Origin: Escherichia phage vB_EcoS_HdH2
Reading direction: 5' to 3' (one strand)
DNA: 64,000 nucleotides
Sequence record: NC_048748.1
Shown here: one piece after another, positions 58,292-58,860 of the stretch
How positions within the stretch are numbered: the first letter of the stretch is position 1
Layout: the number at the start of each line of letters is the position of its first letter
Program-made: the position numbers and the translations under genes
Notes under the pieces: generated by a model
What the model saw: the letters and a program-made list of their open reading frames with translations, nothing else
Database searches by the model: none
Told to the model about the DNA's origin: nothing

Positions 58292-58860
58292 TCCGTACTC
58301 AAGACCAGTGATAGCATCTTTGGAAAAAATTTACTTGCATGATGCTCAAAATCTTGATATAATATTTATATTGAATCGAGAGACATTAGTAAAAATTAAT
58401 TTTGCTAATTTTTCTTGTTTACAATCCGCGATACGGAACAGTTAGGCTGCCCCATTAAGGGTTGTTTTAACTATTACTAGTGTTTATATTGCATTAGTTA
58501 ATCTTCAATTAAGTGATCTGTGTACCCTGAATTCGGAAAGGTAAATCCAAACCGTGCATATTTAGCTCGTTATATAGGCAGAGTTTTATATGGGGGTGCG
58601 AACGAAAAGAGCAGCGAATGGCGGCACGTACAGTAGTCACCTACCAATAGGATAGTGAGGACAAATAGAATCGGCTTAGCGGCCAATGACCTAGGTTCTA
58701 TTCTGTATATGAGCGAAGAGAGCACAGCACTGAGATATGATAACTTATTCATATTGTTTGATGATAATTGATGTTTACGTAAATAGTAGTAATAGTTGTT
58801 CTATTCTTTCTGAATAGTCCTAAAGAAAAGATTTCGATTAACCAACACAGGAGTATTGTT

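What the first reader, a model, noticed from the sequence alone, without database searches (positions are those of the whole stretch)
58292..58860. About 570-bp ORF-poor leader upstream of the GTG-start 929-aa initiator-like gene
No plus-strand ORF of 60 aa or more occupies this AT-rich interval. It contains a promoter-like TTGATATAAT element near 58340 and ends at a strong RBS (acaggag) before a GTG start. Long structured leaders before replication genes can hold origins or regulatory RNAs.
Basis: seen in the sequence. Interest (0 to 1): 0.4.

Follow-up and report, generated by a model that had tools for sequence, protein, structure and literature searches.

The report
Large structured leader RNA before T5 helicase
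The 617-bp gene-free stretch upstream of the T5-type replication helicase gene (D2/"origin-binding protein") holds a terminator, a typical T5 early promoter and a roughly 490-nt untranslated leader that folds into a conserved multi-helix RNA matching no described RNA family; its function is not yet known.

Summary
The window is a T5-like phage (Tequintavirus, about 96-97% identical to T5 and BF23). Positions 58244-58860 carry no conserved ORF, and they contain the upstream terminator, a real member of the T5 early-promoter family, a GGAG ribosome-binding site and the GTG start of the 929-aa D2 helicase.

The new result is that the leader is a conserved structured RNA, not a spacer. It has a 5'-terminal hairpin (P1), an almost invariant hairpin (P2), a roughly 34-bp long-range stem (P3) enclosing a roughly 250-nt multi-junction core (P4-P8), and a 3' hairpin (P9).

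- **Covariation:** sequence-only alignments of six to seven lineages show heavy compensatory change. 88-89% of cells are paired, against 36-53% in slid controls, with 0/500 shuffles as good.
- **Strand:** G-U wobbles, fold energies and the promoter all point to the + strand.
- **Conservation:** P1 and P2 are 99% conserved among close relatives. The core is swapped between alternative versions that keep the fold.
- **Known families:** nothing in Rfam 15 matches.
- **Context:** a long leader precedes obp in all 47 T5-family phages examined.

The most likely function is RNA-level control or processing of D2 expression. An excised trans-acting RNA or an RNA-primed origin is not excluded. There is no positive evidence for an origin.

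The parts
58267..58291 (+). Intrinsic terminator of the upstream operon (ACCGAG-loop-CTCGGT followed by TTTT)
   Evidence: Sequence; inverted repeat I13; the homologous site is annotated as a rho-independent terminator in BF23 and T5.
58324..58363 (+). Early sigma-70 promoter (T5P32 homologue): A-tract 58324-58330, -35 TTGCAT 58335-58340, extended -10 TGaTATAAT 58355-58363. The predicted transcription start is about 58370.
   Evidence: Member of the repeated T5 early-promoter family in the window. Annotated as a putative early promoter in T5 AY587007 and AY692264. A promoter of the same type lies at the same place in the Klebsiella, Pectobacterium, Serratia and Vibrio relatives. The start site is predicted, not measured.
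58378..58416 (+). P1: a 5'-terminal hairpin (7 bp, bulge, 10 bp, 5-nt loop) that begins about 8 nt after the predicted start
   Evidence: 20 pairs, 14 with changes on both sides. 89.3% of cells are paired against 42-53% when slid; 0/500 shuffles as good. The geometry is the same in five lineages. Pairwise identity is 99.3% among 28 Tequintavirus/Epseptimavirus loci.
58421..58465 (+). P2: a hairpin with the near-invariant apical motif ACGGAACAGTTAGGCTGCCCCAT (58433-58455)
   Evidence: RNAalifold recovers it in all alignments. The motif is conserved 403-429 nt upstream of the obp start in the Escherichia/Salmonella/Yersinia, Klebsiella and Pectobacterium lineages. The pairs hardly vary, so it is supported by conservation rather than covariation (helix 1). 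Identity is 99.3%.
58469..58508 (+). P3, 5' arm of the long-range closing stem
   Evidence: Pairs with 58758-58797. Inverted repeat I1. 21 aligned pairs, 16 with changes on both sides, across six lineages (helix 2). About 34 bp in type A and 31+7 bp in type B.
58509..58757 (+). Core domain.
- P4: 58512-58521 / 58724-58731
- P5: 58522-58528 / 58593-58599, with P5a 58534-58554 and P5b 58557-58592
- Purine-rich junction: 58600-58608
- P6: 58609-58627
- P7: 58628-58633 / 58703-58708, with P7a 58636-58662 and P7b 58664-58672 / 58694-58702
- P7b encloses the invariant GGCUUAGCGGCC hairpin at 58673-58684
- P8: hairpin 58734-58755
   Evidence: Helices come from the group alignments. Covariation for P5, P5a, P5b, P6, P7 and P7a is in the two sub-alignments. 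The core is the least conserved part in sequence (0.73 pairwise identity), yet alternative versions keep the same architecture.
58758..58797 (+). P3, 3' arm of the long-range closing stem
   Evidence: As for the 5' arm.
58798..58832 (+). Conserved 3' block with hairpin P9 (CTATTC 58801-58806 / GAATAG 58812-58817) and TCCTAAAGAAAA
   Evidence: Identity is 0.955 to 1.0 among 28 loci and the block is invariant in alignment A1. A small hairpin sits at the same place with a different sequence in the Klebsiella and Pectobacterium phages. No U-run follows it, so it is not an intrinsic terminator.
58833..58863 (+). Linker with the Shine-Dalgarno GGAG (58850-58853) and the GTG start (58861-58863). A possible 5-bp hairpin, CAACA/TGTTG, would place the SD in its loop.
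   Evidence: Sequence; predicted. The pairs barely vary, so the hairpin is untested.
58861..61650 (+). obp / D2 gene: a 929-aa SF2 helicase, directly downstream of the leader and presumably co-transcribed with it
   Evidence: ORF; Pfam Herpes_ori_bp over residues 389-533; annotated D2/obp in T5 and BF23; biochemistry in PMC3632103.

Best explanation
The interval is the transcription-control region and 5' leader of the early mRNA for the T5-type D2 helicase.

1. Transcription of the upstream operon stops at 58267-58291.
2. Host sigma-70 RNA polymerase restarts at a canonical T5 early promoter (-35 at 58335-58340, -10 at 58358-58363).
3. The first roughly 490 nt of the transcript are not translated. 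They fold into a conserved architecture:
   - a hairpin at the extreme 5' end (P1);
   - an almost invariant hairpin (P2);
   - a roughly 34-bp long-range duplex (P3) closing a roughly 250-nt core of nested three-way junctions (P4-P8) with conserved loop and junction motifs (GAUC, GGUAA, GAGAAGUG, AAUA, UUAGCGG, AGUUGCCA);
   - a short hairpin (P9) about 45 nt before the start codon.

Shown: the anatomy, its conservation, the covariation, the strand, and its constant attachment to obp.

Inferred: the RNA acts at the RNA level on D2 expression. P1 probably protects the 5' end from 5'-end-dependent decay. The long P3 duplex is the kind of substrate RNase III cuts, which would separate the core from the obp message and reset its 5' end. 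The conserved core and P2 probably bind a protein or ligand that sets how much D2 is made.
For: Context. The window is a T5-like phage. A 430-710-bp unannotated gap with a sigma-70 promoter precedes obp in the Klebsiella, Pectobacterium, Serratia and Vibrio relatives. One search checked 47 loci. Other early promoters in the window lie about 30 nt from their start codon. Homing-endonuclease genes insert upstream of the leader promoter and never between the RNA and obp. Spacing from the conserved motifs to the obp start is constant.

Structure.
- P1: 14 of 20 pairs covary, 89% paired against 42-53% when slid, 0/500 shuffles.
- Core, in a sequence-only alignment of six lineages: 49 pairs, 32 covarying, 88.3% paired against 36-51% when slid, 0/500 shuffles.
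- Type A against type B: 115 pairs, 23 with changes on both sides.
- Interior helices: 17 of 57 and 31 of 59 pairs covary, with the same architecture in both sets.

Strand. 62 G-U against 11 A-C cells in the core, and 20 against 3 in P1. The + strand folds better (-132.5 kcal/mol, z = -2.7) than the - strand (-101.9, z = -1.5).

Non-coding. No ORF is conserved in position or frame.

Conservation. P1 and P2 are 0.993, the P9 block 0.955-1.0, the core 0.73 and the flanking genes 0.88-0.90.
Against: - No transcript, 5' end or processing site has been measured. The promoter and start site are predictions.
- No expression platform was found. Nothing follows the structure that looks like an intrinsic terminator. 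The small SD hairpin and candidate anti-SD pairings are not conserved outside the closest relatives.
- Thermodynamic z-scores are modest (-2.7, -3.3; -1.2 for the Klebsiella phage).
- The extreme sequence conservation of P1 and P2 (99%) is more than base pairing alone requires. It could reflect a DNA-level constraint such as a protein-binding site, an origin or a recombination anchor.
- Free exchange of core versions between phages whose D2 proteins are about 90% identical argues against a tight match between the core sequence and D2.
Confidence: 0.55

Rival explanations
1. The core (about 58469-58797) is a separate non-coding RNA gene embedded in the leader. The long P3 duplex would be a processing stalk, as for rRNAs in their operons. 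RNase III would release a stable RNA of about 300-330 nt that acts in trans, for example as a protein scaffold or sponge, a counter-defence decoy, or a ribozyme. Co-transcription with obp would then be mainly a matter of timing.
For: - A 31-38-bp long-range duplex is conserved by covariation around a compact, independently folding core.
- The core has conserved loop and junction motifs typical of RNAs with tertiary structure or partners.
- The core behaves as an exchangeable cassette between 99%-identical flanks.
- The type B core resembles that of Pectobacterium phage DU_PP_V in the P5 domain.
Against: - The RNA is never found away from obp in the roughly 540 phage records with a match or in the metagenome hits.
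- It is present once per genome.
- Cleavage has not been shown.
- The most conserved parts (P1, P2, P9) lie outside the stalk, which a purely excised RNA would not explain.
Confidence: 0.2
2. The region is, or contains, a replication origin. One version has the early transcript form a persistent RNA-DNA hybrid that primes leading-strand synthesis, as with ColE1 RNA II or T4 oriF/oriG. The other has the AT-rich P1 palindrome and flanks act as a DNA unwinding element and binding site for D2.
For: - A strong promoter is followed by about 490 nt of untranslated, structured RNA next to the gene of the presumed initiator helicase.
- An 80-bp stretch has 17-23% G+C (58324-58403).
- P1 and P2 are conserved beyond what pairing requires.
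- The site lies at about 59.0-59.6 kb of the 121.75-kb T5 genome, that is, near its centre.
Against: - No iterons or repeated binding sites, no DnaA boxes, and no skew change at the site.
- The one 9-mer identical to the HSV UL9 box (CGTTCGCAC, - strand, 58596-58604) is single and absent from the other core types.
- G-U-rich covariation is an RNA-level signal, not a DNA-level one.
- D2 resembles UL9 only in the helicase motifs, not in the DNA-binding domain.
- The papers I could read or search map no T5 origin here, and a 2023 recombineering study inferred mainly unidirectional replication from one genome end.
Confidence: 0.15
3. The gap is ordinary regulatory spacer (terminator plus promoter), or it hides one or more small protein genes, and the predicted structure is incidental.
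For: - Several short ORFs of 21-60 aa exist on both strands, and some submitters annotate hypothetical proteins here.
- Any 500-nt RNA can be folded into something.
Against: - No ORF keeps its frame or position even between leaders that are 88% identical.
- Compensatory changes far exceed the shuffled and slid controls in independent alignments.
- The length and motif spacing are conserved across genera.
- The promoter alone needs about 50 bp, as at the other early promoters.
Confidence: 0.04

Closest known systems
ColE1-type RNA II pre-primer (and the promoter-plus-unwinding-element origins T4 oriF/oriG and the T7 primary origin); comparison from general knowledge
   Same: A sigma-70 (or phage) promoter drives a long untranslated transcript next to replication functions. 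RNA II is about 550 nt, and its fold decides function. An AT-rich stretch lies just downstream of the promoter.
   Different: No origin has been mapped here. There is no sign of an antisense regulator. The transcript runs into a translated helicase gene with its own SD. There is no sequence or Rfam similarity. The T4 and T7 origins have no conserved RNA fold.
RNase III processing stalks (rRNA operon stems; T7 early-mRNA R sites); from general knowledge
   Same: A long duplex, here about 34 bp, is formed by sequences flanking a structured RNA inside a longer transcript of a phage that uses host RNases.
   Different: Cleavage is only inferred. T7 sites are local hairpins of about 60 nt, not a 290-nt-range pairing. 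No processed species has been shown.
Translational operators of phage replication genes (T4 gene 32, gene 43, regA targets); from general knowledge
   Same: These are RNA elements in the 5' leader of a replication-protein mRNA, a setting where autoregulation is common.
   Different: Those operators are short (tens of nucleotides) and overlap the SD. This element is about 440 nt, ends about 45 nt before the start codon, and no binding protein is known.
Large structured non-coding RNAs carried by phages and prophages (GOLLD, ROOL) and large riboswitch-like leaders (T-box, cobalamin)
   Same: Several hundred nucleotides, many helices and junctions, conserved loop and junction motifs, phage-borne. 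Like riboswitches, it sits in the sense orientation in a 5' UTR.
   Different: No covariance-model match to any of the 4227 Rfam 15 families, even at E up to 10. It is found in virulent phages of Gram-negative hosts and is tied to one gene. No terminator or anti-SD platform and no ligand are known.

Membership tests
Any described RNA family (Rfam 15, including GOLLD, ROOL, riboswitches, group I/II introns, 6S, tmRNA, RNase P) | A covariance-model match at or near the family's gathering score | tested here: not met
   cmscan with permissive filters on window 57500-59500 found only four matches at E of 1.3 or more, all far below gathering. Eight related loci gave a single sub-threshold hit outside the structured part (28.7 bits against 100).
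Cis-regulatory 5' leader / riboswitch-like element | Lies in the sense orientation between the promoter and the start codon of the same gene in all members | tested here: met
   Promoter, leader and obp are in the same order and spacing in 47 loci examined. Insertions occur only upstream of the promoter.
Cis-regulatory 5' leader / riboswitch-like element | A conserved structured sensor domain supported by covariation | tested here: met
Cis-regulatory 5' leader / riboswitch-like element | An expression platform: an intrinsic terminator or an SD-sequestering helix with an alternative pairing | tested here: inconclusive
   No terminator-like site on the + strand inside the leader, and no U-run after P9. 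The CAACA/TGTTG hairpin around the SD is predicted, but its pairs barely vary and it is absent in the Klebsiella and Pectobacterium phages.
Cis-regulatory 5' leader / riboswitch-like element | A ligand or protein that changes the fold and the expression | not testable with these tools
   Needs in-line or DMS probing, reporter fusions and pull-downs.
Replication origin (iteron / initiator-box type) | Repeated initiator-binding sites | tested here: not met
   Only short two-copy repeats. No DnaA boxes. One UL9-box-like 9-mer, single and not conserved.
Replication origin (any type) | An AT-rich unwinding element | tested here: inconclusive
   58324-58403 has 17-23% G+C, but this stretch is the promoter plus hairpin P1, which explains the composition on its own.
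Replication origin (any type) | Mapped start of DNA synthesis, or a strand-compositional switch | tested here: inconclusive
   The cumulative GC skew turns at about 53 kb, where gene orientation flips, not at 58.3-58.9 kb. Skew in such phages follows transcription. The papers I could read or search give no sequence-level origin map for T5.
RNA-primed origin (ColE1 RNA II-like) | A persistent RNA-DNA hybrid and RNase H processing at the 3' end of a structured pre-primer | not testable with these tools
   A promoter and a long structured untranslated RNA are present. Hybrid formation needs DRIP or primer mapping.
RNase III processing site | A duplex of about 20 bp or more in a transcript | tested here: met
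   P3 has 18+16 bp in type A and 31+7 bp in type B and is conserved by covariation. Cleavage itself was not tested.
Miniature transposable element (terminal inverted repeats around the core) | Terminal inverted repeats with a target-site duplication, in multiple copies | tested here: not met
   The arms exist, but no duplication flanks them. The element is single-copy in the window. The arms contain G-U pairs and covary together with interior helices.
Small protein gene(s) | An ORF conserved in frame and position among relatives | tested here: not met

The most novel reading that the evidence does not exclude
T5 and its relatives carry a previously unrecognised class of large structured RNA, with a closed core of about 330 nt inside a leader of about 490 nt. 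Its complexity is comparable to that of the large bacterial and phage ncRNAs or ribozymes. It would have a biochemical role of its own in starting or controlling phage DNA replication, for example as an RNA II-like primer or R-loop former at the long-sought T5 primary origin. Alternatively it could be an excised RNA that binds D2 or host factors, rather than a passive leader.
Probability: 0.3. Interest if true: 0.85.

Novelty: new member of a known kind. Interest (0 to 1): 0.65.

Why it matters
- T5 is a classical model phage, and its early promoters are standard laboratory tools. Even so, the control of its replication genes and the location of its origins are still unknown at sequence level.
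- A roughly 490-nt, covariation-supported RNA fold directly upstream of the essential D2 helicase gene is a concrete, testable handle on both questions. At least seven lineages of T5-like phages infecting Enterobacterales carry it, and a similarly long leader is present in the Vibrio relatives.
- It also adds a candidate to the short list of large structured RNAs of unknown function, in a system with easy genetics.
- It shows a recombination pattern of its own: ultra-conserved flanks with an exchangeable, fold-preserving core.
- In practice, annotators currently place spurious 'hypothetical proteins' and promoters in this interval.

Tried and rejected
- **Rfam:** permissive scans of the window region and of eight related loci found nothing.
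- **Simple promoter/terminator scan:** it missed both the real promoter and the terminator because of its fixed criteria. I relied instead on the promoter family in the window and on the T5 and BF23 annotation.
- **Structure-aware alignment:** mafft-qinsi is not installed, and a covariance model of the whole element would exceed the size limit. All covariation counts therefore rest on sequence-only MAFFT alignments. This is conservative, but some interior helices are left unaligned across all lineages.
- **A failed alignment:** a 106-nt P7b-P8 alignment was misaligned by MAFFT and gave only the UUAGCGG hairpin. It was not used.
- **More diversity:**
  - The viral-contig scan with the P2 motif gave known genomes plus chance matches inside an unrelated gene.
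  - The metagenome scan with the P2...UUAGCGG pattern gave only type B and Klebsiella-type leaders plus five chance hits.
- **Vibrio T5-like leaders:** they are 640-690 nt long with their own conserved islands. I could not show that they share the enterobacterial fold.
- **Rejected ideas:**
  - small ORFs;
  - a transposon with terminal inverted repeats;
  - DnaA boxes;
  - the UL9-box 9-mer as a D2 site, because it is single and absent from other core types;
  - a conserved 5'-end to start-codon pairing, seen in some folds but not conserved;
  - P2 plus UUU as a terminator, because the U-tract is weak and absent in the Klebsiella phages.
- **Literature:** five searches found no description of this RNA or of a sequence-mapped T5 origin. 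Two further searches turned up only the helicase and recombitron papers read, and the BF23 paper read. Bourguignon et al. 1976 is not held.

Full report
**What the window is.** The window carries 24 tRNA genes. Around the finding it is 96-97% identical to coliphage T5, BF23 and many Salmonella and Escherichia T5-like phages. The 929-aa ORF at 58861-61650 (GTG start) is the homologue of T5 D2. Databases call it 'replication origin binding protein' because residues about 389-533 match the helicase part of Pfam Herpes_ori_bp. Biochemically it is an unusual bipolar SF2 helicase proposed to act in initiation (PMC3632103). The upstream genes encode a Sir2-like protein, a HAD_SAK_2 protein and two DUF7415 paralogues.

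**Checking the observation.**
- The non-coding gap runs from the stop of the DUF7415 gene (58243) to the GTG at 58861, which is 617 bp.
- On the + strand it holds only ORFs of 21-55 aa. On the - strand there is one of 60 aa.
- G+C is 35.7% against 39.4% for the window, and it is uneven: 17-25% in the promoter/P1 region and the two arms of the long stem, 40-53% in the middle.
- The string TTGATATAAT is at 58354-58363. With TTGCAT at 58335-58340 and a 17-nt spacer it forms an extended -10 promoter.
- The generic scan missed this promoter. The 47 bp at 58325-58371 nevertheless belong to a repeated family in the window (AAAAATTTACTTGC-N17-TATAATATTTATAT). The homologous site is annotated 'putative early promoter T5P32' in T5, preceded by a rho-independent terminator (window 58267-58291).
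- GGAG at 58850-58853 lies 7 nt before the GTG.

**Why the gap is unusual.** At the other early promoters of this phage the Shine-Dalgarno sequence and ATG follow the -10 within about 30 nt. The conserved initial transcribed sequence...AAATTGAGAGAGGAG..., actually contains the SD. Here the same start (ATTGAATCGAGAGA) continues for about 490 nt before the SD. This long gap is a family trait:

| Phage | Gap before obp |
|---|---|
| Klebsiella phage FZ41 | 598 bp |
| Pectobacterium phage My1 | 590 bp |
| Serratia phage Kamaji | 433 bp |
| Vibrio phage Brizo | 712 bp |
| Vibrio phage VCPH | 658 bp |

All five have a terminator and/or a sigma-70 promoter at the 5' end of the gap. In the roughly 540 database records with a match, and in 47 loci inspected in detail, the element always abuts obp. 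Homing-endonuclease genes that have invaded the region sit upstream of the leader and bring a replacement promoter that starts the same RNA.

**Mosaic conservation.** An alignment of nine relatives shows four zones:
- an invariant 5' block (58378-58472);
- a variable core (58473-58785) that exists in at least three alternative versions: type A (T5, BF23 and this window), type B (for example poul124 and HASG4), and a third in Yersinia phage phiR2-01;
- short shared islands inside the core, such as GGCTTAGCGGCC;
- an invariant 3' block (58786-58832).

Among 28 distinct Tequintavirus/Epseptimavirus loci the mean pairwise identity is 0.993 for P1 and P2, 0.955-1.0 for the 3' block and 0.73 for the core, against 0.88-0.90 for the flanking genes. 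Both core types occur within the genus Tequintavirus, in phages whose D2 N-termini are about 90% identical. The core is therefore exchanged by recombination between the ultra-conserved flanks.

**Structure.** Single-sequence folds of type A and type B give the same architecture, with z-scores of -2.7 and -3.3. RNAalifold on each group separately gives matching helices. The helices are:
- P1 58378-58416;
- P2 58421-58465;
- P3 58469-58508 with 58758-58797;
- P4 58512-58521 with 58724-58731;
- the P5 domain 58522-58599 (P5a, P5b);
- P6 58609-58627;
- the P7 domain 58628-58708 (P7a, and P7b enclosing the GGCU-UAGC-GGCC hairpin at 58673-58684 with a 3'-side internal loop);
- P8 58734-58755;
- P9 58801-58817.

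**Covariation.** All counts use sequence-only MAFFT alignments, so nothing was fitted to the structure.

| Alignment | Pairs | Pairs changed on both sides | Cells paired | Paired when slid | Shuffles as good |
|---|---|---|---|---|---|
| P1, five lineages including Klebsiella, two Pectobacterium and Providencia phages | 20 | 14 | 89.3% | 42-53% | 0/500 |
| Type A against type B, full leader | 115 | 23 | not computed | not computed | not computed |
| Core, six lineages (types A, B, phiR2-01, FZ41, DU_PP_V, My1) | 49 in 7 helices | 32 | 88.3% | 36-51% | 0/500 |
| Interior, type A plus phiR2-01 | 57 | 17 | not computed | not computed | not computed |
| Interior, type B plus DU_PP_V plus My1 | 59 | 31 | not computed | not computed | not computed |

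In the six-lineage core alignment, P3 has 16 of 21 covarying pairs, P4 has 4 of 6, P7b has 7 of 7 and P8 has 3 of 3. The two interior sub-alignments give the same set of helices: P4, P5, P5a, P5b, P6, P7, P7a and the UUAGCGG hairpin. A natural variant adds a U-A to G-C swap in P8. P2 and P9 hardly vary among close relatives. P2 is supported by conservation of its apical motif across genera, 403-429 nt upstream of the obp start. P9 is supported by a hairpin of different sequence at the same place in other genera.

**Is it RNA, and on which strand?**
- G-U cells outnumber A-C cells 62 to 11 in the core and 20 to 3 in P1. Two U-G pairs are invariant.
- The + strand folds better than the - strand in every alignment and in the window itself: -132.5 kcal/mol with z = -2.7, against -101.9 with z = -1.5.
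- The promoter points the same way.
- No ORF is conserved.
- The G-U bias is partly built into the prediction, so it is supporting evidence rather than decisive.

**Comparison with known RNAs.** Nothing in Rfam 15 matches, either in the window at E up to 10 or in eight related loci. Five literature searches found no description of this RNA. The BF23 genome paper annotates only predicted promoters and terminators.

**Function.**
- Shown: the anatomy, the conservation and the fixed link to obp.
- Inferred: the hairpin at the very 5' end, conserved in position even in the Vibrio phages, fits protection against 5'-end-dependent decay.
- Inferred: the 31-38-bp P3 duplex is a plausible RNase III substrate. 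Cleavage would excise the core and leave obp mRNA starting near P9.
- Inferred: the invariant P2 apex, the UUAGCGG loop and the junction motifs look like recognition surfaces for a protein, a ligand or tertiary contacts.
- I found no conserved terminator or anti-SD pairing, so the way the fold would be coupled to translation is open.

I therefore rank the explanations as follows: RNA-level control or processing of D2 expression (0.55), an excised trans-acting RNA (0.2), an origin or RNA primer (0.15), incidental spacer or small ORFs (0.04).

**The origin idea.** There are no iterons, no DnaA boxes and no skew change at the site. A 9-mer identical to the core of the HSV UL9 box (CGTTCGCAC, - strand, 58596-58604) occurs once, and only in core types A and phiR2-01, so I treat it as coincidence. 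Three points fit the idea but are explained equally well by the RNA reading. The locus is near the middle of the T5 genome (59.0-59.6 of 121.75 kb). It has an 80-bp stretch of very low G+C. Its P1 and P2 blocks are conserved beyond what pairing requires. The papers I could read or search describe T5 origins only from 1970s electron microscopy, and a 2023 recombineering study inferred mostly unidirectional replication from one genome end.

**Limits.**
- No expression data were available; the promoter and start site are predicted.
- The alignments hold few independent lineages (six or seven), so each covarying pair reflects few events.
- Interior helices are aligned within two groups of lineages rather than across all of them.
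- Homology of the Vibrio and Serratia leaders to this fold is not established. The Providencia phage shares P1 and the P7b/UUAGCGG module.

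Noticed in passing
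L005 (Yersinia phage phiR2-01) about 1375-1471; also L025 = L106, L030, L047 = L073. The insertion site corresponds to window 58409-58417.: An optional module of about 97 nt lies between P1 and P2, flanked by a direct repeat of TTTTTCTT. It occurs in phages with type A, type B and phiR2-01 cores alike, so it moves independently of the core. It contains its own hairpin (TTTACGG...CCGTAAA). It could be a tiny mobile insertion or an extra RNA domain.
   Followed up: partly
L008 716-1168 (Salmonella phage 8sent1748); L188 376-891 (Kenya-K33); also L062, L122, L181, L183: An HNH homing-endonuclease gene is inserted between the upstream terminator and the leader. The native promoter is replaced by a different one (TTTGCAAGGGAGTATTATTTTATAGTATAAT) that starts the same RNA at nearly the same base.
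   Followed up: partly
window 58596-58604, - strand: An exact 9-mer, CGTTCGCAC, is identical as I recall it to the core of the HSV-1 UL9 origin-binding box I. It occurs once and only in core types A and phiR2-01, so it is probably coincidence.
   Followed up: yes
window 61862-61931: The sequence TCATAAAAAATTTATTTGCTTTCAGGAAAATTTTTCTGTATAATAGATTCATAAATTTGAGAGAGAGGAGTT lies upstream of an ATG at 61940. From memory it is almost identical to the classical strong T5 promoter PN25 used in expression vectors. It drives the ORF downstream of obp, which has a weak, below-threshold HTH_28 match.
   Followed up: no
window 55920-58243: The upstream operon encodes a Sir2-family protein (55920-56744), a HAD_SAK_2 domain protein of the 'Swiss Army Knife' RNA-repair type (56904-57410) and two tandem DUF7415 paralogues (57413-57841, 57851-58243). 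This NAD/RNA-repair-flavoured cluster has no known role in T5.
   Followed up: no
window about 34260-34323, - strand: An early-type promoter (-10 ending at 34323) is followed by a perfect 16-bp hairpin (ACATATTTAAAAGTGT...ATACTTTTAAATATGT) just upstream of the tRNA cluster. Several other early promoters (35616, 33608, 32081, 30680) lead straight into tRNA or other non-coding sequence rather than an SD and ATG.
   Followed up: no
L014, L051-L055 (Vibrio T5-like phages), about 640-690 nt upstream of obp: The leaders are even longer than in T5 and have their own conserved islands (GUAAGAGUG, CUAAGUGUU, GAGGAAGAC, ACGUAGAGA) and predicted helices. One member carries an extra insertion of about 90 nt. 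This may be a distant version of the same RNA.
   Followed up: partly
L006/L007 (type B core) against L043 (Pectobacterium phage DU_PP_V), P5 domain: The type B core of Escherichia and Salmonella phages resembles the DU_PP_V core in the P5 domain (for example CCCCGTAGGRAC, GAARCAAYCTAG, GGTGRTTGTGA) more than it resembles type A. This suggests exchange of the RNA core between genera.
   Followed up: partly
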